Counted from the stretch's first letter, positions 19,963 to 56,690 are shown. The stretch is 64,000 bases of DNA from a virus (IMGVR_UViG_3300037067_007801:23604-87603), one strand, 5' to 3'. Notes: generated by a model not told the origin, from the letters alone. Translations and numbers: made by a program.

Positions 19963-19991
19963 TTGCACTCCCGACACGTTGCTGGTATCTT
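19963..19991 (+). promoter_or_regulatory. putative promoter for second tnpB (possibly leaderless)
   Basis: TTGCAC-17bp-TATCTT, ATG 8 nt downstream. Confidence 0.5.
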
Positions 19992-19998
19992 CAGGATA

Positions 19999-21183
19999 AT
20001 GATCCGCACATGCAAAGTGAAGTTGGGTCGAGCACAGAAGCAGGAAGAAAAACTGCAACGGGTACTTGGGCTTTGCTGCGCTCTATACAATGCGGCCTTA
20101 CAGCAGCGACGCGAGTCGTGGCAGCGTCAGAGCATTTCGCTTTCATTCTACGATCAGTGCAAAGAGTTGACGCAGTTACGGGCTGACGATGAAGATTACA
20201 AAAATCTTCCAACTCAGATGACACGGGCGACTTCGTTGCACCGTTTGGATGGGGCGTTTCAGGCGTTCTTCCGACGAGTGAAGAGTGGAGAGAAACCAGG
20301 ATTCCCGCGTTACCGTAGTCACAATCGGTTTAATACGTTGACCTTCACGGCACATGACTGGTACATCGACAGGAAGAAACTCGTCCTGAAAATTGGGAAA
20401 GAACCTATCACGTTTCAGATGCGAAACGCAATTCACAGAGAAGGTGAGATCAAGGGTCTGCGGATCGTAAAGAGTGCGGCGCGTTGGTGGGCTCACTTTC
20501 TGGTGGACATCGGTCCGACACCGATGGTGAAGGAATCACGGAACGGCGTCGGCATCGACGTCGGACTGCGAACGTTCGCAACTCTGTCGGATGGAACGCA
20601 GGTTGAACATCCACGCTTCCTGCAAAAGAGTCTTGATAAACTACGCGAGGACGGTCAGTCGGTCAGTCGAAAGAAGAAGGGTTCTCAGAACAGGGGTAAG
20701 GCAAAATTGGTGCTTGCCCGCTCGCACGAGAAGATTGCGAATCGACGCCGCAACTTCATCCATCAGACGGTAGCGACGCTGGTCAAACAGTACGACGGTT
20801 TCGCGGTAGAGAAACTCGACGTGCGTGAGATGTCGAACACGGAGAGCGAGCCGGATGGGATGACGAAGAAGGGAGCCCGCGGCTTACGACGCGGGATTAT
20901 GGATTCGGGCTGGACGATGTTCGGGACGCACCTCGCAGCCAAAGCGGAAGAAGCTGGGCTGCCGTTCGTGCGCGTGAATCCGAGAGGGACCAGTCAACGG
21001 TGTTCAGGATGCGGGAGCACGGTACGAAAGACGCTGCGTGACAGGACTCACTGCTGCGTTGCATGCGGCTTGGTGCTAGACCGTGATGAAAACGCTGCGA
21101 GGAATATCAAACAACTTGCGAACGACCTGGGATGCAGGTCGGCGACCAGAGACGTGAGAGTCAAAGGCGCGGAGGTCTCCTAA
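19999..21183 (+). CDS. tnpB: second TnpB/Cas12f-like RuvC nuclease, no clear IS ends
   Basis: IRTCKVKL...LYNAALQQR, GIDVGL, AVEKL, CSGCG/CVACG, DRDENAARNI; flanked by structural genes with only 1 nt to next ATG. Confidence 0.92.
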   Translation: MIRTCKVKLGRAQKQEEKLQRVLGLCCALYNAALQQRRESWQRQSISLSFYDQCKELTQLRADDEDYKNLPTQMTRATSLHRLDGAFQAFFRRVKSGEKPGFPRYRSHNRFNTLTFTAHDWYIDRKKLVLKIGKEPITFQMRNAIHREGEIKGLRIVKSAARWWAHFLVDIGPTPMVKESRNGVGIDVGLRTFATLSDGTQVEHPRFLQKSLDKLREDGQSVSRKKKGSQNRGKAKLVLARSHEKIANRRRNFIHQTVATLVKQYDGFAVEKLDVREMSNTESEPDGMTKKGARGLRRGIMDSGWTMFGTHLAAKAEEAGLPFVRVNPRGTSQRCSGCGSTVRKTLRDRTHCCVACGLVLDRDENAARNIKQLANDLGCRSATRDVRVKGAEVS

Positions 21184-30720: not shown

Positions 30721-31833
30721 ATGGCAGGCGTCGTCGACAAGGTGCACATTGAGGCTGTCGGAACTGGGATCATCGACAACCTCACGTCGTTGCAGGTGAC
30801 GAACGACCTCAATGCTCCGAGCGAGGGCGCCTTCGAGATGGGGAACGAGGGCACGTGGCCAGCGATCGTCGACCAGGTGAAGCACGGAACCGAGTACAAA
30901 GTGTTCGTCAACGACCTGTTGCGGCTGAGTGGTCGCATCGAATTTACTGACCAGCCTACCGACGCACAGGCTGGTTCGACCGTGAGACTCACCGTGCGTA
31001 CGAAACTTGCCGACGCGCAGTACGCATCGGCGCCTCCGAACGTGAAGGTCAAGGACACTTCGATCAAGGAGTTCCTGCTCAAGTTGTACGCGCCGCTGGG
31101 ATACACCGAGGCCGACTTCGAGTGGTCACAGGCTACAGGGCGTGATCTCCTAACTGGAGAGGGGAGCAAGGGCGCTGGCGACACCGTCGACCTTGAGCCG
31201 ATGACGGCACAGGACGCCAAGGTCAATCCTCCCGAGACGGTTTTCGATGCTGCCGATCGGCATCTTCGACGGCACGGTCTGATGCACTGGGATTCGCCTG
31301 ATGGCAAGATCATCGTTGGGTCGCCGGCCGCGGACGGTTCCGCTCTGTACCGGCTCATCATGAACGTGGATGGCCGAGGCAACAACATCCTTGCGTGTAC
31401 GGCATCGCAGGACTGGTCCGGAGTTCCGAGCAGCGTCACCGTGGTCGGGTCGCAGAAGAAGAGTGGAACCTCACGCAAGAGGGTCACGGCGATCGAGATC
31501 GACAGCGACGTCAGCGCCGCCGGGTTCTATCGGCCCGTCGTGATTCCTGCCGAGGGCATCGGATCTGTGGACAAGGCGAAGCGGGCCGCGGCTCGAGAGA
31601 TGTCCGCACGTCGCAGGAACATGGACGCCTGGGACATCGAAGTCGATGGCTTGTCCTGGTGGGATGGGGACCACGGTGTGAACTGGGCCACGGACACTTT
31701 CGTCGAGATTGAGAGCGATCTCATCGGACGGCCGACCGGCCTGTACTACATCCACCGGGTGATGTACCGGCGCGACATCAGTGGCGACAAGACGAACCTG
31801 AGCGTGATTCGTAAAGGGCTGTGGGTGCTGTGA
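30721..31833 (+). CDS. Mu gpP/gp44-like baseplate hub
   Basis: VNPPETVFDAADRHLRRHGL.HWDSPDGKIIVG...GNNIL; synteny. Confidence 0.85.
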   Translation: MAGVVDKVHIEAVGTGIIDNLTSLQVTNDLNAPSEGAFEMGNEGTWPAIVDQVKHGTEYKVFVNDLLRLSGRIEFTDQPTDAQAGSTVRLTVRTKLADAQYASAPPNVKVKDTSIKEFLLKLYAPLGYTEADFEWSQATGRDLLTGEGSKGAGDTVDLEPMTAQDAKVNPPETVFDAADRHLRRHGLMHWDSPDGKIIVGSPAADGSALYRLIMNVDGRGNNILACTASQDWSGVPSSVTVVGSQKKSGTSRKRVTAIEIDSDVSAAGFYRPVVIPAEGIGSVDKAKRAAAREMSARRRNMDAWDIEVDGLSWWDGDHGVNWATDTFVEIESDLIGRPTGLYYIHRVMYRRDISGDKTNLSVIRKGLWVL

Positions 31834-32648
31834 TGAACTTGGTAGGACTAGGCTCACAGGTACTTGCCGACATGGTGCTCCAGTTCGCGAAGGTCGTCGG
31901 GAGCTCGATAGCCGAGGGCTCGAGTGGAACGAAGCGGCCGGTGCAGTATCGCATCGTCGGCATGCCCGGGTGGGACCTGGACAGCGACGAGATCGCCATC
32001 GACGAGAACGAGAACAACAGCGAGTCGACGGACGACGCCGACGTGTACGGGTCTCTCGGAATCACCGGGCGTCCTTTGCCACCCGACAACGCGGCCGGTA
32101 TTGAGGAACACGCCGAGGTCGTTTGCGTTCGCACTGCTGATGGCCTGGTGCCGATCGCTGTCCGCGACGTCCGTCTGCGGATGGGTGGAAACGCGCCGAA
32201 CGAGGGCACGGTGGCGTTCGTCGGATACGGTGGTGGCTATCATTCGATCTCACCGGTTGACAACACCGACATGAAGAAGGGCGCGATCCAGGTGATCTAC
32301 TGCGGGTACGACTTCGATTCGTCTGGAGTCGCTGGGAAGGCGCACACGATCATCATTGACCCGACTTCTGGGAACGAGTCTATCAGCATCATTCACGCCG
32401 AAGGTCAGGCCGTGTTTCTCCAAAAGGACGGCTCGATTCAGATTCAGACGGATGGCGTACCGGCCGGGACCGGCTCGACGGTTCAGCAGTCGTTCATTAA
32501 ACTCGAGCCTGGGAAGATCACGTTGCAAGGTGACCAGGTCGTGTTCAATGGAAGCGTCTACATCGGCTCGCCGTTGACCGGAGTTCCGCTACTTCCAGGC
32601 GTCGCATCTGGCCCCTGTCCTCGGCTGTTCATTTCGCCGACACCGTAG
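31833..32648 (+). CDS. baseplate spike (Mu gp45-like)
   Basis: YGSLGITGRP...AEVVCV...NEGTVAFVGYGG; beta-helix-like C-terminus. Confidence 0.75.
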   Translation: MNLVGLGSQVLADMVLQFAKVVGSSIAEGSSGTKRPVQYRIVGMPGWDLDSDEIAIDENENNSESTDDADVYGSLGITGRPLPPDNAAGIEEHAEVVCVRTADGLVPIAVRDVRLRMGGNAPNEGTVAFVGYGGGYHSISPVDNTDMKKGAIQVIYCGYDFDSSGVAGKAHTIIIDPTSGNESISIIHAEGQAVFLQKDGSIQIQTDGVPAGTGSTVQQSFIKLEPGKITLQGDQVVFNGSVYIGSPLTGVPLLPGVASGPCPRLFISPTP

Positions 32649-32658
32649 GAGGTTCGCG

Positions 32659-32982
32659 ATGGCGATGGTACCAGGCAGCATCACGATCGACCCGGGAACG
32701 GGTGCCGACAGCGGGACTGGTTGCTCCTACGAGTTGTTTCAAGACTTCAACGCGAAGGTCGATTACGGAACAGCGACCGGTACGACGTTGGCCATTGCCA
32801 AGCAGCAGGTCGCCGACCTGTGCGAGAGCATCGGACAAGTCATTGTCACGCACATCGGTGTCAACGCCAAGGCCAAGGTCACGGCGACCGACGCCGGTCT
32901 CCAGTTGCTACCCGCGGCACCGATGGCTGAGGATGACGAGTGCAAGGCGCCGGCCGCTACCAAGTACCTGGGCATCGAGTGA
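32659..32982 (+). CDS. hypothetical baseplate-region protein
   Basis: ORF 107 aa with GGAGG RBS. Confidence 0.7.
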   Translation: MAMVPGSITIDPGTGADSGTGCSYELFQDFNAKVDYGTATGTTLAIAKQQVADLCESIGQVIVTHIGVNAKAKVTATDAGLQLLPAAPMAEDDECKAPAATKYLGIE

Positions 32983-32985
32983 GCC

Positions 32986-33291
32986 ATGACGTACTGTGCC
33001 TTCCCACCGATACCGATCCCTGCGTTCGCGCTCCCTGCGATTCCGCTTCCCGCACTTCCGAGCTTCGTCATCCCGACGTTGCCAAATCTGCCAGGGCTCC
33101 CGATGATAGCGATCCCGGCGTTCACTTTGCCAGCGATACCGATCCCGGGGCTGCCGAGTTTTTCCATCCCATCATGGTCAAGCCTGCCGGGTTTGCCGAT
33201 GATTCCGATCCCGGCGTTCGCTCTGCCTGCCATCCCCTTCCCGGCACTCCCTAGTTTTACGATCCCGTCTCTGTTTTGCGTTCTGGACTAG
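32986..33291 (+). CDS. Pro-rich hydrophobic repeat protein (32-aa unit x ~2.8)
   Basis: IPIPAFALPAIPLPALPSFVIPTLPNLPGLPM-type repeats, terminal Cys at both ends. Confidence 0.65.
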   Translation: MTYCAFPPIPIPAFALPAIPLPALPSFVIPTLPNLPGLPMIAIPAFTLPAIPIPGLPSFSIPSWSSLPGLPMIPIPAFALPAIPFPALPSFTIPSLFCVLD

Positions 33292-33320: not shown

Positions 33321-33377
33321 CCCACCTACAAACCCTAAACTTTATCACTTGACACCATCAACCAAAGGGTTTATATA
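33321..33377 (+). promoter_or_regulatory. early-class promoter/operator driving Cas7-like/array cassette (class E, copy 2)
   Basis: TTGACA(33349)-17bp-TATATA with TCAACC-AAAG-GGTTTA; upstream CCCACCTACAAA..AAACTTT shared at identical spacing with 52953-53009. Confidence 0.85.
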
Positions 33378-33409
33378 CCTCTCATGGTCATCTAACAGGA
33401 GGGTACGAA

Positions 33410-34075
33410 GTGGCACACAGAACGAAGAGGGTAACACTCACCGGGTTGACTCCGCTCATCATGCACAAGGACGGGATGGACTTCGAGGGTCGCATCAAGT
33501 CGTGGCGCATGAACCCGGCGAACAAAGACTTGCAGGTCAAGGGCGACGACCGTTCCCCCGCGTGGACGTGGATTGGCAGCGTCTACCACGACGGGAAGAT
33601 GGTCGGCATCCCGAGCGACAACATCATGACGGTGTTGCGAGAGGGCGGAACGAAGGTCCCGACCGGCAAGCGACAGGGGACGTTCAAGCGCCAGTCGCAG
33701 ACGGGAATCATCGTCATGGAACCGCTATGGCTGTTGACGACGGCGGAAGGAAACCAAGTCGAAATCGCCGACATCAACGTCATGCTCGACGAGACCGATT
33801 TCGACAAGCAGGTGGAGGCGGCGCGCAAACTCAACATCTCCCTGTTCGTCAAGCGCGCAAAGTTGGCGACCTCGAAGAACGTTCGCGTGCGTCCCATGTT
33901 CGCAGCCGGGTGGAATATCAGCGGGACGGTCAGCATCACGGACAACAGCATCACGGACAGCGTGTTCTCGGACATCCTCATGATGGCCGGGGACCTGAGC
34001 GGCCTGTGCGACTGGCGTCCGAGTTCTCCGAAATCGCCGGGACCTTACGGAAGGTTCACGGCGGAGGTGAAGTAG
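33410..34075 (+). CDS. Cas7/RAMP-like protein (putative VIPR effector, Vipr)
   Basis: N-terminal VTLTGLTPLIMH (RAMP tPl strand), IPSDNI, C-terminal G-rich loop AGDLSGLCDWRP...GPYGRF; AGGAGG RBS; immediately followed by GGY-NN array. Confidence 0.8.
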   Translation: MAHRTKRVTLTGLTPLIMHKDGMDFEGRIKSWRMNPANKDLQVKGDDRSPAWTWIGSVYHDGKMVGIPSDNIMTVLREGGTKVPTGKRQGTFKRQSQTGIIVMEPLWLLTTAEGNQVEIADINVMLDETDFDKQVEAARKLNISLFVKRAKLATSKNVRVRPMFAAGWNISGTVSITDNSITDSVFSDILMMAGDLSGLCDWRPSSPKSPGPYGRFTAEVK

Positions 34076-34081
34076 ACACGC

Positions 34082-34766
34082 GGTTCTCGGCGCGGCCAGG
34101 CACGGCGAGCCGGGGTGTGGCACGGTCCGGCAAGGCAAGGAGCGTGGTCCGGATGGGCATGGCACGGCGAGTCGAGGCACGGCGAGGCACGGTTCCTGGC
34201 AAGGCAGGGCGAGGCCGGGCGCGGTCCGGCAAGGTGAGGATCATGGACGGCAGGGCATGGCGGGTCCAGGTGCGGCGAAGCAGGGCCGGGCGTGGCAAGG
34301 ATCGTGACACGGCGCGGTGCGGTGAGGTTGTGCGTGGCAAGGCGAGGTTCCAGGTAGGTCTGGGCCAGGTGCGGCGTGGCTGTGCTAGGCGAGGGTTAAG
34401 GCATGGCAGTGCGCGGCAGGGTCGGGCATGACACGGTGTGGCAAGATTTGGATAGGTTGGGAATGGCAAGGTTGGGTAGGGCGAGGCAAGGAACTGGGTG
34501 TGGCGCGGTGTGGCATGGTCGGGTCCGGTACGGAGCGGCCTGGCAAGGCGAGGATCGTGGCGTGTCAGGGTTAGGTAGGGCACGGTGTGGTGAGGCGAGG
34601 AACGCGGTGCGGCGGGATCAGGTTAGGCATGGTGTGGCCTGGCGCGGCGAGGAACGGGGTGAGGCATGGTTCGGTGCGGCACGGCAGGGCGGGGAAAGGC
34701 GAGGATCCCGGCAAGGTGGGGTGAGGCGTGGTCAGGCAAGGCAAGGTGTGGCGCGGCAAGGAACAT
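34082..34766 (+). ncRNA. GGY-NN pentamer array (putative VIPR guide-RNA array), 12 units
   Basis: Manual parse: 118 pentamers, 100 begin GGC/GGT with variable last two bases; units of 8-11 pentamers (one 18) separated by 7-nt junctions GGA-N4/GGTTC-N2/GGGTTAA. Confidence 0.85.
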
Positions 34767-34790
34767 GGTACAATTTCTAAGGAGGAAAAC

Positions 34791-35246
34791 GTGAGCAAGT
34801 CGAAAATGTACTTCGGTGGTGTTCCGACGGAGCCGGATGTTCGGCGACTGTTGGACAGATATGGGCGTCCGCAGCAAGGCCAGGTGATGGCCTACGACGA
34901 GGTGGCAACCGTCGTCGGGATTCGGCGCGAAGACTCTCGGTTCAAGACCGTGACAAATGCTTGGCGCAAGGCCATCTATTCGAGCTACAACATCGTCATC
35001 GGCACGCGACCGGGGGTTGGATTCGTCGCCCTACAGGAACCGGAGAGACTGGACTACGGCTCGCGGAAGTTTCGGTGTGGAATTCGCCAGATCAAGAGAT
35101 CGCACGGCGTGATCTCCGGGTGTGACGAAATGAAACTCACTCCGGAACAACGCGGCCACAAGCAGCACGACGAGATGGTTTCGGCTCACTTGATATTGGC
35201 CGGGCGTCTGGAAGCCAGACGCTTGCAGTCATCGAGTGGAAAGTAG
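34791..35246 (+). CDS. small basic accessory protein downstream of array (possible wHTH)
   Basis: GTG 34791 after GGAGG; 151 aa Arg/Lys-rich; YDEVATVVGIRREDSRF helix-turn-helix-like segment. Confidence 0.75.
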   Translation: MSKSKMYFGGVPTEPDVRRLLDRYGRPQQGQVMAYDEVATVVGIRREDSRFKTVTNAWRKAIYSSYNIVIGTRPGVGFVALQEPERLDYGSRKFRCGIRQIKRSHGVISGCDEMKLTPEQRGHKQHDEMVSAHLILAGRLEARRLQSSSGK

Positions 35247-35255
35247 AGGGACCCA

Positions 35256-36119
35256 ATGGACTGGTTCAAACTCCCGATTCTCATCCTCATCCTAGGCCTC
35301 CCCACGTGCTCCCCAATCGATTTCCAGGCCGGACCCCTCCCACCCATACAAGACGGTGGTTCAGACGACTCCACGGACTCCCAAACCGACACCATTGAGG
35401 ATTCCGGGACCGACGGTGACAGCGATTCGGACACGGACGTGGACAGCGACACGGACACGGGGCCGGATACTGGCACCGAGACTGACACCGAGAGTGAAAC
35501 TGGAAGCGACACGGACACCGACGTCGACACAGACACAGACACAGACACAGACACGGACTCGGATACCGATACCGATACCGATACCGAGATCCCGGACCCG
35601 TGCACTGGTCCAGGCACATGGCTCGACGATGGTTGGTGGTTCGACTTCCTCCCGGACTATCCGGGCGGCGATATGACGTACCTTGGCACCCGTTGTTGGC
35701 AGGACCCGCCGGCTCCGGAACTCATGGAGTGGACCGCGGCCGTGGACTACTGCGCTGACCTCGTGCTCGCCGGGTACGACGACTGGATCCTGCCCGACGT
35801 CAACCAGCTCCGTTGGCTCGGGCGGCCGACCACATGGGAGTGTGCCGACTGCGGGCTGATTGCTCCTGACCATCTGGCCGAGTCGGACATCGAAGACTGC
35901 GAGGCGTGCCTGCCGTTGTTCGGTGGGGCTGGTGCTGGAGGATGTTACTGGGATCCTGCACTGGGCGGAACATGCTCCTACTACTGGAGTTCTTCGGAGC
36001 AGTCCGGGTATCCACTTAACCGAGTATGGGGCTGGTCGTTCGCCGGAAATGACCCCGGACTCGTCGCGTCCAACAAGACCGGATCGCTTGGCTACACTCG
36101 CTGCGTGAGGTCGCTGTGA
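35256..36119 (+). CDS. putative lipoprotein with Asp-Thr repeat linker and DUF1566/Lcl C-terminal domain
   Basis: Hydrophobic N-terminus ending LGLPTC; (DT)n; WTAAVDYCADLVLAGYDDWILPDVNQLR...YYWSSS...VWGWSF...TRCVR. Confidence 0.85.
   Translation: MDWFKLPILILILGLPTCSPIDFQAGPLPPIQDGGSDDSTDSQTDTIEDSGTDGDSDSDTDVDSDTDTGPDTGTETDTESETGSDTDTDVDTDTDTDTDTDSDTDTDTDTEIPDPCTGPGTWLDDGWWFDFLPDYPGGDMTYLGTRCWQDPPAPELMEWTAAVDYCADLVLAGYDDWILPDVNQLRWLGRPTTWECADCGLIAPDHLAESDIEDCEACLPLFGGAGAGGCYWDPALGGTCSYYWSSSEQSGYPLNRVWGWSFAGNDPGLVASNKTGSLGYTRCVRSL
35395..35590 (+). repeat. hexamer tandem repeats encoding Asp-Thr/Ser linker
   Basis: GACACA/GACACG/GATACC runs. Confidence 0.9.
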
Positions 36120-36798: not shown

Positions 36799-38403
36799 AT
36801 GGCGACCTCTGACGAACGCATGTTCCCGATCTTCCGCCGCGGTCAAGTGCGCGACGAGGCACTGTTGCGGGCGTTCCGTAACCATCTCCGCGATCTCATC
36901 GACCCGGATACGGGAGCGTTGTTCACCGAAGACAAGATCAAGACGATCACGCAGCGCGGCTCACGGTTCTACCTGGAAGCCGACGCCATCGACTTCGTTG
37001 GCCTTGCGCTCCAAAAGCGTGCGCGCTGGATGGCGAACCAGACTCGTCCGAAGTGGGCGAACACGGAGTACCTCGAGCAGGTGCATGGGCCGCTATGGAT
37101 CCCTACTGGTCGACTTCCGGCTACCGGAGGAAGTGGACTCGCGACCGCAACCGCGGCTGCCGGCGCCGTGTTTCCAGGGTCGACCGTGCTTGGAGCACCT
37201 GCCGCGGCCGTTGCCGTGTCCGAGGACGGGTCTCAATTCCAGGTGCTCGTCACCGAGACGGTGCCGGTTGGAGCGACGACGGTCGTGCTGACCCTCCAGT
37301 GCATCGACACCGGCATCAACACCAACCCGGAGGCCGGTGCGACGCTGACATGGGATAAGAACTTCCCCGTCTCTGCGGAGTTGACCTTCCCCGTGTTGAG
37401 CGACTTCACTGGTGGGTACGACGAGGAGACCGACGCTGAGTTCGCCGACCGCATCGAAGAGGTGATGAGCCATCGCCCGGCATGTGGCAACGGTGCTCAC
37501 TTCCTCGCGTGGGCGCGTGAGTGTTCGACCGCCATTGAGACGGCCTTTATCTATTCCTGTGCTTGGCACGCCGGTTCGGTGCTCGTGTGCATCACGCAGA
37601 AGCGCGGAGACACTGAGGGACCGAACGCGCGAACGGACGTAGCCCCGGGTACGCTCATCGCTGCTCGGAACTACCTCGTTCCTCCGGCGAGTCCAGTGGT
37701 TGCCGAGCGTGCGCACGTTGTTGTGGTAGCTCCGAACGAGCAGCCGGCCGACCTCGCGTTGCAGGTCAGTCTCGGATACGGAACCGTCGGCGGCTGGAGC
37801 GATGTTGATCCGTGGCCGACCTACACCGTCGGATACCCGGCCGGAGTGATCGTCACGAGTATCATCAGTGCAACAAAATTCACGGTCGCTACAAATTCAC
37901 CTCTTCCTGGGGTTGGCGCTGGGGTGTTGACCGGAGCCGACGCGCCGCAACTCATGATCTGGGATGAGGCTCACAGCGCGTTCATCGAACTCGATGTGAA
38001 GTCCGTTGACACGACTGTTGCACTGGTTGCGACCATCGAACTGAACACCGCGCCGACTGGATACACCACGGCGACTGGCGATCTCATCTCTCCGCACACG
38101 GATAGGCTCGACATCCTGGCTGGTTCGCTGACAGCCTACTTCGATGGGCTCGGGCCTGGTGAAGTGGTCGACCTGGACGTGGACCCGCGTGGCGGCCGTG
38201 CATACCGCTATCCGACACCGGCACAGCAGTATCCGATGCGTGCTGGCGAGGCTGTCATCACGCGCGTGCTCGAGGCACTCGGTGGCGTGGCCCCTGATGC
38301 CTCGTTGCCGTACATCTCAATCAATGAACCGACTCTGCCAGGTGACGTGGTGGATGGTCCGAACATCGTGACGCTCGGTGAAGTGGGCGTCTATCCGCTG
38401 TAG
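36799..38403 (+). CDS. baseplate J-like protein (Mu gp47)
   Basis: FTGGYDEETDAEFADRI...GNGAHFLAWA...AGSVLV. Confidence 0.9.
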   Translation: MATSDERMFPIFRRGQVRDEALLRAFRNHLRDLIDPDTGALFTEDKIKTITQRGSRFYLEADAIDFVGLALQKRARWMANQTRPKWANTEYLEQVHGPLWIPTGRLPATGGSGLATATAAAGAVFPGSTVLGAPAAAVAVSEDGSQFQVLVTETVPVGATTVVLTLQCIDTGINTNPEAGATLTWDKNFPVSAELTFPVLSDFTGGYDEETDAEFADRIEEVMSHRPACGNGAHFLAWARECSTAIETAFIYSCAWHAGSVLVCITQKRGDTEGPNARTDVAPGTLIAARNYLVPPASPVVAERAHVVVVAPNEQPADLALQVSLGYGTVGGWSDVDPWPTYTVGYPAGVIVTSIISATKFTVATNSPLPGVGAGVLTGADAPQLMIWDEAHSAFIELDVKSVDTTVALVATIELNTAPTGYTTATGDLISPHTDRLDILAGSLTAYFDGLGPGEVVDLDVDPRGGRAYRYPTPAQQYPMRAGEAVITRVLEALGGVAPDASLPYISINEPTLPGDVVDGPNIVTLGEVGVYPL

Positions 38404-43268: not shown

Positions 43269-46200
43269 ATGAGCACCGTCAATCAGGCACGCTTCACCAT
43301 CGATGCGACGCCGTCTGAGGATCCTGTCACTGGCGATCCAGGATACATCGCTGCGTTCAACCAGACGCTCGACTTCACGCTCGAGACCAGCCCGAGTTCC
43401 GCGCTGTCGGTGACGTACTCTGTCTTCGATGCGGCCGACACGAGCTCGCCGTTGTCCAGTTACGGCGCGACTGCCCTGACGTTCGTTGGTTCTGGAACTG
43501 CATCCGAGACGCTCGTCAACCCGAACGGCACTGCACAGATCATCATGCCCGCGTTCGGCGTGGCGTCGTACATCGTTCGTTGCTCCGTCTGCATGTCCGA
43601 TGCAACACATATCTACGAGCGCCTCGTCGTGCTGGAGGCAGGCACCACACCTGCACTCAGGAAGACTGTTCCGGCTGAGACCGACCAATACTACAAGCGC
43701 GGGTGGAGCGATGAGCAGAATAAGATGGTCGAGGCCATCCTCGGTGCAACCGGCTTGTACTGGGGTTCGGCTGGGACGTACCAGAACACGTGGGTGACCG
43801 ACATCGGTGGTGGCAGCATCGCCGTCCTGGGAGGTACTGGATACCTTAGAACGACCCCATCTGTTGTTGGCGTCATCACGGCTGTCACGTGGGCCGCGGT
43901 CGCAGGCGTGGCGATTCCGGCGAACACGACTCGGTACGTTGGCGTCGAGTACAACGGTGGAGCTCCGCAGGTGATCGTCCGTGTCGCAAACACGTTCAAC
44001 GGGTTCGACGACTTCCTGCTGGCCACGGTCTACAACGAGGCCGGGACGGTTCACATCCTCGAGCACGAGCAAGCCACGATGGACGGAGTGCATGGAAGTT
44101 ACGCTCGGTTCTTCGGCAACTTCCCGCTGTCGCGCGCTGAGAGAACAGGTGGCTTGATCGTCGGCGACACTGGCGTGCGCAACCTCACGATGTCCGCTGG
44201 CGTCCTGTACGACGGCCTGAGTTCGTTGACCATCGCTGCGTTCGATTCCAGTGGCGCGAGTCTGTTCGACTACTATTTTAGAGACGGCGCTGGCGGATGG
44301 ACGAAAGAGGCGGCGAAATCTCAGTACACCAGTTCGCGCTACGACGATGGTACCGGAGTGTTGAATGCCCTGACGGCTGCACACTACGGAATCACGTGGT
44401 GGTATCTCGAGAGCGATAGTCACGTCGTCGGGTTGTACGGATGGGGCAACTATGCGACCTTGGCAGAGGCAGAGGACGCGACACCTCCGTCGTCGGTGCC
44501 AGAACGGATCACTGCGCATGGGCTTCTGATTGGACGGACGATCGTGTTGCGTGGTGCTGCATCCGCCACAGAGGTTGAATCCGTTTTCTCGGTAGAGTTC
44601 GGTCTGACCGCCGTCACCAGCCACAACTCGCTGGCAGGGCTTCAAGGTGGAGTGGCCGGAGAATACTACCATCTAACTTCGGCGCAGCACACCGACCTGA
44701 CGGATGGACTGACGTGCACCTCGCACGTGCACACACTCGACCAGACATATCGTGCCGCTGTCGCGACTGTGACTGCCGACGTTCACGACGTGACGTGGAA
44801 TCTCACCGGGGCGTACTCGTTCGTTCTCGGGCTCGCTGGATGTACCGGGGCGGCAGATGGTTTTCAAATCACAAACGGAACGGACTTCCTCTCTGTCCTG
44901 CGCGCTGATGTCGATAACATGGCTTGGACGTCCGAGTTTGAGACATTCGATCTGAATGTTGAACGTGACATACACATAGACTCCTTGATGTCGGTTGGTA
45001 TTACTACTGGTGCGACCGGGTTCACGGTCAACACCACGCAACTGGTTATGGACCAGACCACGGGCTATCTCGGGCTCGGTGTTGCTGTTCCGTCTGGCAT
45101 GATCGCGATGAACGGTGAGGCGAATCGGCAGATGGGAATGGAGCGGCGCACTGCCGCTGACACCGCTGGAAAGAATCTCGCCTTTGCTGCCGGTGGGGCG
45201 ACGATTGGAGCGACAGACAAAAACGGTGGGGACCTGAATCTCGCTAGTGGCATTTCCACTGGTACAGGTTCGAGTGGTTTCAATCTCTACTGCTATCCGG
45301 CTGGTGCCGCGGGCATCGTTGACAATACACCGATTGCCATGATTCAAGGCACCGCCGCGCTCCTAACGCTCGGAGATACGACTGGGGCGACTGCTACAAC
45401 GGTGCGTGCCGGAACTGGAGCGCTCTTGCTCTCCGGTGCGGGCTTCATCAACTTCGTCGATGCGTACAAGGCGGCTGGTGGTTACGCTGGAGATTTCCAT
45501 CTTTCGCTGAATGCTGGTGAATGGACGTCATTCGAGACGAATTTCGGTGAGGTTAGTCTTCTCAACGCGATCAACCAATGCGCGGCGTTGGCTGTCGTCA
45601 CATTGGACGAAGCATACGATGCCGGTGGCGCTGGCGTCGGTCGAGCGATCACGGCAGACAGCGGCGCGGTTGACATCAGCGTTCCCGTACTGGTCAACGG
45701 TACGGCCCTGGCATTGCACCAACTCATGCCAGCCGCGACAGCGGACGTTTTCACCATCGAGAACCTTGGAACGAGCGGCGCAAGCATCGCGTTGACCGGA
45801 ACTCGACGGTTCATCGAGACAGACTCAGCGGACGCCACATTCGCACTGGTTGCCGCAGACGCGAACAACTACTACCTGCACCTCTCTGCGTCGAATGGAG
45901 GAGCAGGAACGGCTGGAATAGGCATCGGAGCGGATGACAACATTGACATTATTTCGTCTGCCGGTTGCCTGACCCTACATGGATACAGTTCTGCTGGTGT
46001 CGGCGTTGAAATTGAGGCGACTGCCGGTGGTGGGACCGTCAACATCTGCGCCGTGAACCTGCCGAACGCACTCAACATCGGAACGGCTGGAGCGCGCGAC
46101 ATCGACATCGGTTCATCTGCCGCGACGAGTATCACTGCCGAGGCAAAAGATGTCAGCCTCGGTGTCGTTGACAATGATGCTGCGGCACACACTTTTGCTA

Positions 46201-48935
46201 TTTCTGCGACGAATGCTGGCGCTGGGACAGCACTTCTTAACATCGATGCCGACGACGCCATCACCATCGATTCGTTGGCTGCTGGCATTTCTCTCGATGG
46301 CGTGACGGCTTCCAACTTCTCTGTGACCGGTGCGAATCTCACGTTGAGCACAATCACTTCTGGCGTGCTTGCGTTGACGTCTGCCGGACTGCTAACGTTG
46401 ACAGATGGTTTCAAGGCTGCTTCGACGTATGGAACCGATCTCGTACTGTCCGATGCTTCTGCCGAGTGGGACACGTTCGATACGAACTTCGGAGAGGTGT
46501 CACTCCTTAACGCGATCAATCAATGTGCTTCTACCGCTGTCACGCTCGATGAAGCCTACAATGCTGGCGCGGCGACGATCACGGTGGACGCCTACGACAC
46601 GACTTGGAACCTAACAGGTGCATTCTCCCATGTCATCAATGCTGCCGGTTGCACGGGCGTAGCGGACGGAGCTTTCGTAGAGGACGGCACGGACTACTGG
46701 CGGTTGACTCATGCCGGTGCGGACACGCTGAACCTCAGTGCGGAACTTGGGTCGGCAACGATTGGAACATCGCTCACGTTCGATCTGAATGCCGTCGGCG
46801 CAATCACTCTCGATAGCAGTGGCGGGACGATTGGGATCGGCGTCAATGCGGACGCTTTCGGAATCAACATCGGCACGGGCGCTGCGGCTCGCGTGATTAC
46901 GATTGGAAATCTTACAACGACCACGGCGGTGAATTTCAATACTGGCACGGGCGGATCGTTGATGACGCTCGCCAATGATGCGCAGTTCACCGTTCAGGGT
47001 TCTGCGACGGCAACGGTTTCTCCTTATGCCGCAATGCTACTCAGAAACCCGCAGGACAGCGGATCGGGTACTGATTACGACAACGAAGTGCATCTCCGAT
47101 TGTGGGCGGGTACGACTACCAGTCATCGCGCCTACATAAATTTTACGGACAACACCGGCACCGATAAGTGGATGACCGGACGCAACGCTTCATCTGTTTG
47201 GATCTTGTACAACTCCGAAACGTGCCATCGCTTGTGGTTTGAGAACGACGATACCGCGCCGTTTAATTCCGGGAATTCGTACATCAACGCAGGCGGTACG
47301 GGCATCGTTCGTTTTGGATACCATGCATCAGATAGCGTCGGGACAGGTGGGGCGGAGGTCTGGTCGGGAGGTGTTGCTCCCTCGTTATGGCACCAATTCA
47401 ACGGAACCAACGCCATATTAGGACGAAAAACCGGCATCGGTTGTACTCCAACGCAGATGCTTGATATTCAGTCCGGGGCCATACGCTTTGGCTATGTCGT
47501 GAAACCGATTGCACCGGTTGCGTCCCTAAGTGGGGCGGGGTCAGTAAATACTGCCGGGACGCATGTTGTAGCAGTAACGTATGGAACTGCTTTGAATGTT
47601 GGAGAGACGGAGCTAAGCGTTGTCTCCAATGTTGTTACTGTAACGGCAGCGCAAGAATACATCGATATCACGTTGCCGGTGAGCGCCGATCAGAATGTGA
47701 CTTATCGCAATGTGTACATGAGCAAGCAGGGTACGGTTACCCCGCTTTATCGTGTTGCGGCATCCCCTGTGGTCAACAACAACACGGGGATAACATATCA
47801 AATATCAGTGGCGGATGCGAGTCTTGTAACTGCGGGAAGCGCGACGGTAAATACTACTTCTGGACGAATTCACTGTGGATCGATTTCGTGCTTTGCCGTT
47901 GATTCGTTGGGCAATCTTGTGCTCGGAGGTAACGGTGGGACTGTTTACGCCTCTGGAGCAACACTTATTCTTGCCGGTTCTGTCGGTGTGACTGCATTCA
48001 AGTCGAATACCGGGGCTGCGTATTTCGGAGTTATGAATCAATATGGTATTGGTTCGCTCGGATGCTCGCCCGCTTCTGGTGAAAACTTCGCCATGCTCGG
48101 CACCTCCGCTGCGGGCGTCAAGATGCAACGTCACACCACCGCGAACACCGCAGGCAACTCGCTCAGCCTGATAGCGGGCGGGGCGACGCTACTTGCTACG
48201 GATAAAAACGGTGGCGAGTTGTTGCTCAAGCCGGGTCAAGCAACCGGCACTGGTTTCGCGCTGTCCTCCATGTGGTGCACTCCCGTTGGCGCGGCGGGCA
48301 CGACGACGAATGATCCGGTGAGGGTATTGACCTGTGCACCGTTGACAGGTGGCGCGGCTGGTAGTTTCGGCGTCGGCGTTGGAACGAGTACGCCGACTTC
48401 ACCATTTGATTTGGAGCGCGCTGGCACCGCGAAATCAGTTGTCGATTTTCTCGAAATCACGAACACTGTGAACGCGGCCGACATGGACGGCACGGGCACG
48501 GGCATCGTCTGGAATCAGTGGTACTACGACGCGGCAACACCGGCCGTAGCGGACGCGGGACGGATTGCCTGCATCACCGAGAACGATTGGACTTCTGTCA
48601 ATCAGGATTCTTGCTTGGCCTTCTATAACGCAGGCACCCGCGCTGTTGAAGAAAAGATGCGGCTGAATTCCAAGGGCACCCTGCAACTCATGGGAACGGT
48701 CACCAATGCAAACGCATACGGTGCACTCCATCTGTTCTACACGGGGACGGTTCCGATTGCTGCAACGGCCGACTCGATCCTGGCCTATGCAGTTGATTCC
48801 AGTGACAACACGGCCACACTTGGGTTGATGCTTGAGCAAGCAGTTGAGGCAATAGGCGCAGGGTTCACGCCCGACTTCAAGCTCAAGATATTGGTGGATG
48901 GTGTTGAATACAGGATAGCGTTGGAAGCAGTGTAG
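43269..48935 (+). CDS. long tail fibre / host-recognition protein (1888 aa)
   Basis: Gly/Ala/Thr-rich, HNSLAGLQGG..GEYYHLT motif, internal duplicated modules, last gene of tail module. Confidence 0.85.
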   Translation: MSTVNQARFTIDATPSEDPVTGDPGYIAAFNQTLDFTLETSPSSALSVTYSVFDAADTSSPLSSYGATALTFVGSGTASETLVNPNGTAQIIMPAFGVASYIVRCSVCMSDATHIYERLVVLEAGTTPALRKTVPAETDQYYKRGWSDEQNKMVEAILGATGLYWGSAGTYQNTWVTDIGGGSIAVLGGTGYLRTTPSVVGVITAVTWAAVAGVAIPANTTRYVGVEYNGGAPQVIVRVANTFNGFDDFLLATVYNEAGTVHILEHEQATMDGVHGSYARFFGNFPLSRAERTGGLIVGDTGVRNLTMSAGVLYDGLSSLTIAAFDSSGASLFDYYFRDGAGGWTKEAAKSQYTSSRYDDGTGVLNALTAAHYGITWWYLESDSHVVGLYGWGNYATLAEAEDATPPSSVPERITAHGLLIGRTIVLRGAASATEVESVFSVEFGLTAVTSHNSLAGLQGGVAGEYYHLTSAQHTDLTDGLTCTSHVHTLDQTYRAAVATVTADVHDVTWNLTGAYSFVLGLAGCTGAADGFQITNGTDFLSVLRADVDNMAWTSEFETFDLNVERDIHIDSLMSVGITTGATGFTVNTTQLVMDQTTGYLGLGVAVPSGMIAMNGEANRQMGMERRTAADTAGKNLAFAAGGATIGATDKNGGDLNLASGISTGTGSSGFNLYCYPAGAAGIVDNTPIAMIQGTAALLTLGDTTGATATTVRAGTGALLLSGAGFINFVDAYKAAGGYAGDFHLSLNAGEWTSFETNFGEVSLLNAINQCAALAVVTLDEAYDAGGAGVGRAITADSGAVDISVPVLVNGTALALHQLMPAATADVFTIENLGTSGASIALTGTRRFIETDSADATFALVAADANNYYLHLSASNGGAGTAGIGIGADDNIDIISSAGCLTLHGYSSAGVGVEIEATAGGGTVNICAVNLPNALNIGTAGARDIDIGSSAATSITAEAKDVSLGVVDNDAAAHTFAISATNAGAGTALLNIDADDAITIDSLAAGISLDGVTASNFSVTGANLTLSTITSGVLALTSAGLLTLTDGFKAASTYGTDLVLSDASAEWDTFDTNFGEVSLLNAINQCASTAVTLDEAYNAGAATITVDAYDTTWNLTGAFSHVINAAGCTGVADGAFVEDGTDYWRLTHAGADTLNLSAELGSATIGTSLTFDLNAVGAITLDSSGGTIGIGVNADAFGINIGTGAAARVITIGNLTTTTAVNFNTGTGGSLMTLANDAQFTVQGSATATVSPYAAMLLRNPQDSGSGTDYDNEVHLRLWAGTTTSHRAYINFTDNTGTDKWMTGRNASSVWILYNSETCHRLWFENDDTAPFNSGNSYINAGGTGIVRFGYHASDSVGTGGAEVWSGGVAPSLWHQFNGTNAILGRKTGIGCTPTQMLDIQSGAIRFGYVVKPIAPVASLSGAGSVNTAGTHVVAVTYGTALNVGETELSVVSNVVTVTAAQEYIDITLPVSADQNVTYRNVYMSKQGTVTPLYRVAASPVVNNNTGITYQISVADASLVTAGSATVNTTSGRIHCGSISCFAVDSLGNLVLGGNGGTVYASGATLILAGSVGVTAFKSNTGAAYFGVMNQYGIGSLGCSPASGENFAMLGTSAAGVKMQRHTTANTAGNSLSLIAGGATLLATDKNGGELLLKPGQATGTGFALSSMWCTPVGAAGTTTNDPVRVLTCAPLTGGAAGSFGVGVGTSTPTSPFDLERAGTAKSVVDFLEITNTVNAADMDGTGTGIVWNQWYYDAATPAVADAGRIACITENDWTSVNQDSCLAFYNAGTRAVEEKMRLNSKGTLQLMGTVTNANAYGALHLFYTGTVPIAATADSILAYAVDSSDNTATLGLMLEQAVEAIGAGFTPDFKLKILVDGVEYRIALEAV

Positions 48936-52952: not shown

Positions 52953-53009
52953 CCCACCTACAAATCACAAACTTTTCCTATTGACACCCTAAACCACAAG
53001 GTTTATATT
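52953..53009 (+). promoter_or_regulatory. early-class promoter/operator (class E, copy 3)
   Basis: TTGACA(52981)-17bp-TATATT with perfect TAAACC-ACAA-GGTTTA; ATG 8 nt downstream (leaderless). Confidence 0.85.
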
Positions 53010-53016
53010 CCTTTCC

Positions 53017-53226
53017 ATGACACAACGCTATCAGCCTCAAGACTTCTCGCACCTCGTGCGAGAGCAGATGGCCCGGCGCGAGTTGAGCCTCGCTGAACTC
53101 GCTCGCCGAATGAGCGCGTCGAGCCAAGCAGTCATCCGCATCCTGACGCGGAACAACCCGAGGGTGAGCACCGTGCTTCGCGTTGCGTTCGCGCTCGGCG
53201 TCGACCCGCGGGAGCTCGTGCCATGA
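53017..53226 (+). CDS. XRE/Cro-family HTH regulator
   Basis: LSLAELARRMSASSQAVIRIL..NNPRVSTVLRVAFALGVDPREL. Confidence 0.9.
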   Translation: MTQRYQPQDFSHLVREQMARRELSLAELARRMSASSQAVIRILTRNNPRVSTVLRVAFALGVDPRELVP

Positions 53227-55790: not shown

Positions 55791-56690
55791 ATGACCGAAG
55801 ACAACAGCAAGTTTTTTCCCGATGCCATCTCCGGGACTGAGGCCGTCGTTGCCTGTCTTGGCGAGCACTACGGCCGCACGCGCTACAGCGTGTGGAAGTC
55901 GAAGATGGAGAAGAAGGGCGCGGTCGTACCCATCAACGGCGACATGCGCCGCGGTCTCACGCTTGAGCCGATGGTGCGCGACATGTACCGTGGCTTGCAT
56001 CCGAACCTGACCGTGACCGGCGAGGCTCTGATACGACACCCGTCCGAACCGTTGGCTGGCCATGCTGACGGTCTTGTTGACGACGACGGCGTGCTCGAGA
56101 TCAAGTGCCCGCGTGCCGGTCGTTCTCGCAAGCTGCTCGAGACGGGAGAACTGCCCGAGGCGTGGGTCATCCAGGTGACTCATTATTTGCGGATCACTGC
56201 CCGTCAGTGGGCAGACGTCGCGGTGTTCGATGGCGACAACTGGGAGCCGGTGATCGCCCGAGTCGAGTACAACCCGGAACTCGGAACGGTCATCGCGGAA
56301 GCCTGCCTCAAGCTGTGGGATTGCGTGTTGACGCGCACTCCGCCGGACGGGTACGGGATTGTGGCACCCAGTGGAAGGAATGTGGAGATCGAGGTCGTCG
56401 ACAACCCGGCACTCATCGCTGCGGTGAACGAATACCGCGTGGCGTCCGAGATGATCAAGACTCTCGAAGAAAAGAAGGAAGACGCGAGGAGAAACGCGCT
56501 GGCCATCATGGACGAACGTGTGGTCGCGAAGTTGCCGGACAACACGCGCGTCTCGGCTGGCTGGACAGAAGGAAGAGAGACGATCGATGGCCGTGCAATC
56601 CTGCGCGACCATCCTGAAATCGACGCAGAGAAGTACACGAAGAGAAGTGAGCCGACCCGCGGAATGCGGATAACAGGAGGGACGAAGTGA
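55791..56690 (+). CDS. YqaJ-like (lambda exonuclease family) recombination nuclease
   Basis: SGTEA...MRRGLTLEP...LAGHADG...VLEIKCP...QVTHYL. Confidence 0.92.
   Translation: MTEDNSKFFPDAISGTEAVVACLGEHYGRTRYSVWKSKMEKKGAVVPINGDMRRGLTLEPMVRDMYRGLHPNLTVTGEALIRHPSEPLAGHADGLVDDDGVLEIKCPRAGRSRKLLETGELPEAWVIQVTHYLRITARQWADVAVFDGDNWEPVIARVEYNPELGTVIAEACLKLWDCVLTRTPPDGYGIVAPSGRNVEIEVVDNPALIAAVNEYRVASEMIKTLEEKKEDARRNALAIMDERVVAKLPDNTRVSAGWTEGRETIDGRAILRDHPEIDAEKYTKRSEPTRGMRITGGTK

What the first reader, a model, noticed from the sequence alone, without database searches (positions are those of the whole stretch)
33321..35246. Phage RNA-guided system candidate: Cas7/RAMP-like gene + GGY-NN pentamer array + accessory gene (VIPR-like)
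Seen: a dedicated promoter, a 221-aa ORF with RAMP/Cas7-like hallmarks (N-terminal TGLTPL strand, C-terminal G-rich GLCDWRP...GPYGRF loop), then within 7 nt of its stop a 685-bp array of 5-nt units with constant GG(C/T) and variable NN, then a small basic ORF. There are no other cas genes and no CRISPR repeats. Established: Cas7-family RAMPs polymerise along guide RNAs with a fixed nucleotide periodicity. Recalled, not verifiable here: recently reported phage VIPR systems (a Cas7-ancestral Vipr protein plus GGY/NN RNAs, where the NN pairs read a gapped dsDNA target skipping every third base, giving repression of competing phages). Inference: this is a complete, multi-guide instance of such a system, possibly in a new host lineage.
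Basis: partly seen in the sequence, partly recalled or inferred. Interest (0 to 1): 0.97.

Follow-up and report, generated by a model that had tools for sequence, protein, structure and literature searches.

The report
Phage VIPR guide-RNA system, known kind

Summary

**Protein.** The ORF at 33410..34075 (221 aa) is a sequence homologue of the solved SUSP1 Vipr protein:
- a profile search of PDB sequences gives E 5.4e-18;
- hhalign gives 99.3% probability over the full length;
- the GGY-reading residues are conserved (H19, R161, D201-W202-R203);
- a confident model (pLDDT 93.8) matches Cas7/Csm3 best.

**Array.** The stretch 34082..34771 is a real GGY-NN pentamer array.
- 74 GGY pairs sit exactly 5 nt apart, against 6.2 in shuffles.
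- It is the only such array in the genome.
- It splits into about 13 units of 7-11 repeats.

**Accessory gene.** The 151-aa gene at 34791..35246 is a conserved partner.

**Relatives.** Across 112 related loci:
- 108 have co-oriented GGYNN arrays beside vipr, and none has one elsewhere;
- 93 have the accessory gene.

**Local features.**
- Units end in a 7-nt GGAAC-type junction, not the roughly 40-nt structured tail of SUSP1.
- A sister phage (Vipr 94% identical) has an entirely different array between conserved flanks.
- The cassette lies inside the baseplate module, behind a promoter/operator shared with the phage's Cro-like gene.

**Not settled.** I found no natural targets, and host, expression and VIPR type remain untested. 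VIPR is published in three 2026 preprints, and this scan has noted it in at least 207 other genomes. This is a new member of a known kind.

The parts
33349..33377 (+). Promoter (TTGACA, 17-nt spacer, TATATA) with an operator-like inverted repeat TCAACC-N4-GGTTTA in the spacer
   Evidence: Four copies of the composite motif in the window against 0 in shuffles. It is conserved, with a perfect palindrome, before vipr of the sister phage. The copy at 52981 precedes a Cro/C1-type HTH gene. Promoter function is inferred.
33410..34075 (+). vipr: 221-aa Vipr (minimal RAMP/Cas7-like) protein
   Evidence: Profile against PDB: SUSP1 Vipr 36pp_D, E 5.4e-18. hhalign against the SUSP1 ORF: 99.3%, E 2.6e-20. 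AF2 pLDDT 93.8. Foldseek top hits are Cas7 of type VII and Csm3. phrog_4652, E 9e-15.
34082..34771 (+). vrRNA array: about 125 GGY-NN pentamers (some degenerate) in about 13 guide units
   Evidence: Co-oriented arrays lie next to vipr in 108 of 112 related loci.
34089..34145 (+). unit 1: 10 repeats plus junction GGAGCGT
34146..34197 (+). unit 2: 10 repeats (2 degenerate), ends GGTTC plus a 2-nt register shift
34198..34248 (+). unit 3: 8 repeats plus junction GGATCATGGAC
34249..34310 (+). unit 4: 10 repeats (2 degenerate) plus junction GGATCGTGACAC
34311..34454 (+). units 5-7: 8, 8 and 9 repeats with irregular junctions (2-nt and 1-nt shifts, GATTTGGATA). This is the least regular part of the array.
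34455..34496 (+). unit 8: 7 repeats plus junction GGAACTG
34497..34558 (+). unit 9: 11 repeats (1 degenerate) plus junction GGATCGT
34559..34605 (+). unit 10: 8 repeats plus junction GGAACGC
34606..34657 (+). unit 11: 9 repeats plus junction GGAACGG
34658..34709 (+). unit 12: 9 repeats plus junction GGATCCC
34710..34766 (+). unit 13: 10 canonical repeats plus junction GGAACAT
34791..35246 (+). vap-like accessory gene, 151 aa, basic, no known domain
   Evidence: A homologue lies beside vipr in 93 of 112 loci. Alignment A3. hhalign against the ORF next to SUSP1 vipr: 70.6%, E 3.9e-5. No Pfam, PDB or PADLOC match. Atlas neighbours are viral hypothetical proteins.

Best explanation
This is a complete phage-borne VIPR system: vipr, a multi-guide vrRNA array and a vap-like gene, transcribed rightward from their own promoter.

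Inferred from the published SUSP1 work: Vipr protomers polymerise along each guide unit, one per pentamer. They bury each GGY (the first G by H19 and D201, the second G by R161 and W202, the pyrimidine by R203, D70 and N71) and expose the NN pairs. The NN pairs read double-stranded DNA while skipping every third base, and binding represses transcription of competing mobile elements.

Specific to this clade, and also inferred: guide units are delimited by a 7-nt junction (GGC-R-A | GGAAC-R-N) rather than a long structured tail. The purine at the Y position and the 2-nt register shift would end one filament and start the next.

The cassette is probably switched on with the phage's early, Cro-type regulon.
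For: Shown here:
- Homology to the solved SUSP1 Vipr (E 5.4e-18, 99.3% over 188 columns).
- The GGY-contacting residues named in 10.64898/2026.04.26.720927 align with invariant residues of this clade: H17/H19, R138/R161, D177-W178-R179/D201-W202-R203.
- RAMP fold: the model has pLDDT 93.8, and the best matches are Cas7 and Csm3.
- The array periodicity is far above chance and unique in the genome.
- 108 of 112 related loci carry arrays, all on the vipr strand and adjacent, none elsewhere.
- The accessory gene is present in 93 of 112 loci.
- The sister phage has Vipr 94% and Vap 93% identical, but a different array (about 370 nt against about 700 nt, no shared guide) between conserved flanks.
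- A clade-wide junction logo and unit periods of 42-67 nt.
- No self-target in the 87.6-kb genome, as the papers report for other VIPRs.
- The promoter/operator is shared with a Cro-like gene.
Against:
- No natural target was found for any of the 13 guides. Scans covered the genome, 1.45 Mb of related phage loci, seven exact gapped scans of IMG/VR and one of JGI metagenomes.
- The skip-1 rule could not be verified for this clade. Among 304 guides against 1.48 Mb, skip-1 matches were no better than other skip rules or shuffles.
- The 5' half of the array has irregular junctions and degenerate repeats, so some units may be decayed.
- SUSP1 K33 aligns with M34 here.
Confidence: 0.85

Rival explanations
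1. A genuine VIPR locus whose guides act on something other than rival phages or satellites, for example host genes or the phage's own timing. The output could differ from simple repression and be mediated by the uncharacterised Vap-like protein.
For: No phage targets were found in IMG/VR or in related loci. The Vap-like protein has no recognisable domain. The cassette is tied to the phage's own operator system.
Against: No match above chance in the phage's own genome. Published VIPR targets are overwhelmingly mobile elements. The exact-match scans are insensitive, because published targets are accepted at 80% NN identity or more.
Confidence: 0.1
2. The locus is VIPR-derived but partly or wholly decayed in this phage, with an array that is no longer used.
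For: Units 2-7 have degenerate repeats and irregular junctions. No targets were found.
Against: - vipr and vap are intact and are the best-conserved genes of the region against the sister phage: 94% and 88% nt, compared with 70-75% for neighbouring structural genes.
- All invariant residues are present.
- Units 8-13 are regular.
- Internal degeneracy is described as common in vrRNAs.
Confidence: 0.04
3. Not an RNA-guided system: an orphan Cas7 remnant next to a G-rich simple repeat, for example a G-quadruplex-forming or protein-coding low-complexity stretch.
For: The array is 48% G, and GG every 5 nt could form two-tetrad quadruplexes. Long open frames cross it.
Against: A period of 5 is incompatible with a repeated peptide. 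The association with vipr is strand-specific and position-specific in 108 of 112 loci from many phyla. The protein is a homologue of a structurally solved Vipr and keeps the GGY-reading residues. No Cas model matches it.
Confidence: 0.01

Closest known systems
Type II VIPR of Escherichia phage SUSP1 (Vipr + vap1 + vrRNAs; bioRxiv 10.64898/2026.04.26.720920, .720927, 10.64898/2026.10.15.759431; PDB 36pp)
   Same: - A homologous Vipr protein with the same GGY-contacting residues.
- GGY-NN pentamer guides on the same strand.
- A small accessory gene of about 150 aa beside vipr (146 aa in SUSP1), with weak profile similarity.
- Phage-encoded, with no cas genes and no CRISPR array.
- No self-targets.
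   Different: - Vipr is only remotely similar: tblastn finds nothing in cultured phages, and only profile methods detect it.
- The G-loop is 7 residues longer (SSPKSPG).
- SUSP1 vrRNAs are separate genes of about 100 nt, each with a structured pseudoknot tail of about 40 nt. Here 13 units of 7-11 repeats abut one another through 7-nt GGAAC-type junctions.
- Gene order here is vipr-array-vap.
- Targets here are unknown.
'Staggered' vrRNA arrays mentioned for other VIPR types (fig. S18 of 10.64898/2026.04.26.720920)
   Same: [quoted passage not shown] No Rfam hit, and in particular no hammerhead.
   Different: The figure and the type tables are not held, so I could not check identity with that architecture, the junction motif or the VIPR type.
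CRISPR Cas7-family RAMPs (type III Csm3/Cmr4, type VII Cas7)
   Same: RRM core, thumb hairpin and glycine-rich loop. They are the best structural matches (Foldseek E about 1e-6, TM about 0.5).
   Different: - 9-16% sequence identity.
- No PADLOC Cas model matches.
- 5-nt rather than 6-nt periodicity.
- No CRISPR repeats, no Cas6, Cas5 or large subunit, and no adaptation genes.

Membership tests
VIPR system | Vipr protein: a minimal single-RRM RAMP homologous to described Viprs | tested here: met
   Profile A2 against PDB: SUSP1 Vipr, E 5.4e-18. hhalign: 99.3%, E 2.6e-20, full length. Model pLDDT 93.8 with Cas7/Csm3 as best folds.
VIPR system | Residues that read GGY (SUSP1 H17, R138, D177, W178, R179; Y-pocket E71/M72) | tested here: met
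   They align with H19, R161, D201, W202 and R203, all invariant or nearly so in 76 relatives. E71/M72 align with D70/N71, which are at least 90% conserved. SUSP1 K33, a backbone contact, aligns with M34 and is not conserved.
VIPR system | Tandem GGY-NN (YNNGG) repeats, at least 4 units, adjacent to and co-oriented with vipr, with conserved GGY and variable NN | tested here: met
   74 GGY pairs at 5-nt spacing against 6.2 in shuffles. 108 of 112 related loci have such arrays. All 16 NN are used clade-wide. The sister phage array has different NN content.
VIPR system | Minimal locus without cas genes or a CRISPR array, usually with one vap gene | tested here: met
   The neighbours are baseplate genes. 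No CRISPR-like repeats. No PADLOC hits. A conserved 151-aa partner gene.
VIPR system | The array is transcribed, processed to vrRNAs and bound by Vipr | not testable with these tools
There are no RNA data.
VIPR system | Guides match natural DNA targets under the 1-nt skip rule | tested here: inconclusive
   No hit above shuffled-guide or other-skip nulls. Exact scans were empty or at chance level. One exact 16/16 match in wobble register came from a related phage's guide; about 0.2 were expected by chance.
VIPR type II (SUSP1/P. fulva architecture) | Each vrRNA ends in a conserved structured 3' tail of about 40 nt | tested here: not met
   Units are separated by 7-nt GGAAC-type junctions, here and clade-wide. 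The SUSP1 tails were read directly for comparison.
VIPR type II (SUSP1/P. fulva architecture) | A vap1-family accessory gene | tested here: inconclusive
   hhalign of A3 against the ORF beside SUSP1 vipr: 70.6%, E 3.9e-5, 101 columns. That this ORF is vap1 is my inference from its position.
CRISPR-Cas (class 1) | A CRISPR repeat-spacer array and further cas genes | tested here: not met

The most novel reading that the evidence does not exclude
In this large Vipr clade, guide length and guide boundaries would be set by a bare 7-nt junction, GGC-R-A | GGAAC-R-N.

A purine sits where the Y pocket excludes purines, and the register shifts by 2 nt. Filament assembly itself, rather than a structured tail, a ribozyme or a dedicated nuclease, would then define each vrRNA.

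Whole arrays are exchanged between conserved flanks in sister phages, and the cassette is governed by the phage's Cro-type operator.

This may simply be the 'staggered array' type that is already sketched in print.
Probability: 0.3. Interest if true: 0.5.

Novelty: new member of a known kind. Interest (0 to 1): 0.3.

Why it matters
It adds a well-resolved example of VIPR in a complete genome of an uncultured contractile-tail-type phage from an unknown, GC-rich host. Three details could guide experiments on the non-SUSP1 clades:
- a simple sequence rule for guide boundaries;
- clear evidence that arrays turn over completely while vipr and vap stay nearly identical;
- a link between the cassette and the phage's early regulatory operator.

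It does not change what is known about the class.

Tried and rejected
- **Single-sequence AF2 fold of Vipr.** It gave pLDDT 31 and was useless. I redid it with an alignment.
- **Complex prediction of Vipr with the Vap-like protein.** No verdict. This is not evidence either way.
- **Target search for the 13 guides.**
  - Own genome: nothing above shuffles.
  - 0.22 Mb and then 1.45 Mb of related loci: nothing above shuffles.
  - Exact gapped scans of IMG/VR with 9-10 repeats of units 13, 9, 1, 4 and 2: 0 hits.
  - 8 repeats of units 11 and 12: 5 hits each, in unrelated genes, at chance level.
  - Unit 13 with 9 repeats in JGI metagenomes: 18 hits with no convergence.
- **Unit 11 against vipr.** It matches the AG.Y.GL.D region of vipr genes in two loci at 15/18, which is within the shuffle range, so I dropped it.
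- **Decoding guides as peptides.** No recognisable motif.
- **Clade-wide test of the skip rule.** No enrichment in a 1.48-Mb database, which is too small.
- **Host inference.** The TnpB gene is 82% identical to one in a Terriglobia MAG, but the capsid was not found in 301 Acidobacteriota genomes, and there are no cultured-phage relatives. The host is left unknown.
- **GGTTC + 2 nt as a second junction type.** It is not clade-wide.
- **Rfam.** No hammerhead or other family in the locus.
- **VIPR type assignment (I-VII).** Impossible, because the supplementary tables are not held.

Full report
**What is there.** The window is the right-hand 64 kb of an 87,603-base IMG/VR virus record that CheckV rates complete. 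Nearly all long ORFs lie on the + strand. In order they encode:
- a large terminase;
- a portal/MuF-like fusion, a protease and a major head protein;
- a tape measure and baseplate hub proteins;
- further on, a baseplate wedge subunit, a RecT-like protein and a DnaB-type helicase.

The finding lies between the baseplate hub/spike genes (30721..32982) and a phrog_6 baseplate wedge gene (36805..38403). Its parts, in order, are as follows:
- a TTGACA-17-TATATA promoter at 33349..33377;
- a 221-aa ORF with a GTG start at 33410 behind AGGAGG, and a stop at 34075;
- six bases later, a G-rich array running to 34771;
- a 151-aa ORF (GTG 34791 behind AAGGAGG, to 35246).

**Is the array more than chance?** Of 107 GGY trinucleotides in 34076..34770, 74 are followed by another GGY exactly 5 nt later. 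Dinucleotide shuffles of the same stretch give a mean of 6.2 and a maximum of 15. No other run of four or more GGYNN exists on either strand of the whole genome. The period of 5 rules out a repeated peptide.

**The protein.** Pfam and PADLOC find nothing. PHROGs gives only an unannotated family, phrog_4652. A search of 5.8 billion proteins returns more than 1,270 relatives, nearly all 217-226 aa and unnamed.

A profile of 76 of them hits one solved structure, 'SUSP1 Vipr protein' (36pp_D), at E 5.4e-18. hhalign against the SUSP1 ORF itself (KT454805.2, 28477..29061, minus strand) gives 99.3% probability and E 2.6e-20 over 188 columns.

The cryo-EM preprint names the residues that hold GGY: H17, R138, D177, W178 and R179, with E71/M72 lining the pyrimidine pocket. 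In both alignments these fall on H19, R161, D201, W202, R203 and D70/N71. All are invariant or at least 90% conserved in this clade. SUSP1 K33 aligns with M34, so that contact is not conserved.

With the alignment, AlphaFold2 gives pLDDT 93.8. The only soft block lies over the glycine-rich loop, which here is 7 residues longer than in SUSP1. Foldseek against the PDB ranks Cas7 of type VII complexes and Csm3 first (E about 1e-6, TM about 0.5, 10-16% identity).

**Do relatives carry arrays?** I collected 112 loci with a vipr homologue: 23 from genomes and MAGs of many phyla, 80 from IMG/VR, and 9 fetched by exact protein identity.
- 108 have clusters of GGYNN runs directly upstream, downstream or on both sides of vipr, always on its strand.
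- No such cluster occurs anywhere else in 1.4 Mb of flanks, or on the opposite strand.
- Three of the four exceptions have a truncated contig or a partial match.

**The accessory gene.** A homologue of the 151-aa protein lies beside vipr in 93 of the 112 loci, sometimes before it and sometimes after. The family shares an N-terminal FGGVPTxPDV motif and an invariant R...W-R core. It has no Pfam, PDB or PADLOC match, and its language-model neighbours are viral hypothetical proteins.

Against the 146-aa ORF next to SUSP1 vipr, presumably vap1, hhalign gives 70.6% and E 3.9e-5. That suggests remote homology but does not settle it. A complex prediction of Vipr with this protein gave no verdict.

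**Array grammar.** The array splits into about 13 units of 7-11 pentamers. Units 8-13 are regular. Each ends with GGC-A/G-A followed by a 7-nt junction (GGAACTG, GGATCGT, GGAACGC, GGAACGG, GGATCCC, GGAACAT). Units 1-7 have longer or odd junctions, and some repeats have lost GGY but keep the 5-nt register.

The same grammar holds across the clade:
- Gaps between repeats are mostly 5 nt (284, degenerate repeats) or 7 nt (260).
- The non-5-nt gaps begin GGAAC (179), GGATC (37) or GGAGC (23).
- The repeat before them carries AA or GA.
- Unit periods peak at 42-67 nt, that is 7-12 repeats plus 7.

This differs from SUSP1. There each vrRNA is a separate gene of about 100 nt ending in a structured tail of about 40 nt. 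No ribozyme or other Rfam family is present. [quoted passage not shown] This locus probably belongs there, but the figure and type tables are not held.

The SUSP1 structure shows a Y pocket that excludes purines. From that I infer that GGA plus a 2-nt register shift ends one Vipr filament and begins the next. This has not been shown.

**Turnover.** A sister phage was recovered on at least eight contigs from one set of samples. It has the same gene order, with Vipr 94% and the accessory protein 93% identical. Its array is about 370 nt instead of about 700 nt and shares no guide with this one. The sequences flanking the array, and the promoter with its operator, are conserved.

vipr and vap (94% and 88% nt identity) are better conserved than the adjacent structural genes (70-75%). 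A more distant relative (Vipr 62%) carries the same vipr-array-vap trio in a different phage context, so the trio moves as a module.

**Regulation.** The composite motif TTGACA-N5-AACC-N4-GGTTTATA occurs four times in the window, at 1663, 33349, 52981 and 63527. None is expected by chance. An inverted repeat, TAAACC-N4-GGTTTA, fills the spacer.

The vipr copy and the 52981 copy also share about 30 nt upstream. The 52981 copy sits 8 nt before the start of a 69-aa Cro/C1-type HTH gene. The inference is that one phage regulator controls the VIPR cassette together with early genes. No tyrosine integrase was found.

**Targets.** Under the published rule (NN, skip one base, NN) none of the 13 guides matches the phage's own genome above the shuffled-guide level. 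This agrees with the reported absence of self-targeting.

I also found no target elsewhere:
- Nothing stands out in 1.45 Mb of related VIPR-bearing phage loci.
- Seven exact gapped scans of IMG/VR and one of JGI metagenomes gave either nothing or chance-level, non-convergent hits.

These scans need perfect matches, whereas published targets are accepted at 80% NN identity. The negative result is therefore weak.

A clade-wide test with 304 guides showed no excess for skip 1 in the small local database. One guide of another phage (L087) matches a P-loop ATPase ORF of a further VIPR-bearing phage (L107) at 16 of 16 positions, with every skipped base at codon position 3. About 0.2 exact hits were expected by chance, so this is suggestive only.

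The host is unknown. A TnpB gene in the head module is 82% identical to one from a Terriglobia MAG. However, the capsid was not found in 301 Acidobacteriota genomes, and no cultured phage is close.

**Verdict.** Four things are not established:
- expression and Vipr binding of the array;
- the targets;
- the VIPR type;
- the role of the junction.

VIPR was described in April-June 2026, with follow-up in October 2026. A genome-language-model survey recovered 99 clusters of 5-nt-period arrays. This scan already holds 292 notes on it in at least 207 genomes. I therefore rate it a new member of a known kind, of modest interest.

Noticed in passing
window 19963..21183: A TnpB / IS605 OrfB-type gene (PF12323, PF01385, PF07282; phrog_506) sits in the head-gene module, after the major head protein gene. 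Its best named relative is 82% identical, from a Terriglobia (Acidobacteriota) MAG. This is a second RNA-guided-nuclease-family gene in the same phage and the only host hint.
   Followed up: partly
window 1663, 33349, 52981, 63527: Four copies of one promoter with an inverted repeat (TAAACC-N4-GGTTTA) in its spacer. The 52981 copy precedes a near-leaderless 69-aa Cro/C1 HTH gene (53017..53226). The 33349 and 52981 copies share about 30 further bases upstream.
   Followed up: partly
window 33009..33266: A 96-nt tandem repeat (2.7 copies, 72% matches) lies inside a proline-rich ORF (32986..33291) immediately upstream of the vipr promoter. Whether it codes for protein is unclear.
   Followed up: no
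window 35256..36119: The gene after the accessory gene encodes a lipoprotein-like N-terminus, a long D/T/S-rich linker and an Lcl C-terminal (DUF1566-type) domain (Pfam E 6.4e-09). It is only 54% identical to the sister phage's copy, while vipr is 94%. It is absent from other VIPR loci, so it is probably a separate fast-evolving moron.
   Followed up: partly
window 56687..57997: A RecT-like annealing protein (residues 11-256) carries a C-terminal part that matches a PHROG 'transcriptional repressor' family (residues 327-428).
   Followed up: no
window 9366..12257 and 43269..48935: A portal and MuF-like minor head protein are fused in one 963-aa ORF. A 1,888-aa ORF has no PHROG match and is possibly a tail fibre.
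   Followed up: no
L087:~9761 (guide) and L107:8280..8302 (target): A guide from another IMG/VR phage of this Vipr clade matches a P-loop ATPase ORF of a different VIPR-bearing phage at 16 of 16 positions under the 1-nt skip rule. All skipped bases fall at codon position 3. About 0.2 exact hits were expected by chance in that test.
   Followed up: partly
phrog_4652 (family), hit at window 33410..34075: The PHROG family phrog_4652, labelled 'unknown function', matches this Vipr over its full length (E 9e-15). It probably corresponds to Vipr proteins, which could serve as an annotation update.
   Followed up: no
G000, whole record: No tyrosine integrase (PF00589) is found in the complete 87.6-kb record. 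The phage may be lytic or use another lifestyle, although it has a Cro-like gene and operators.
   Followed up: partly
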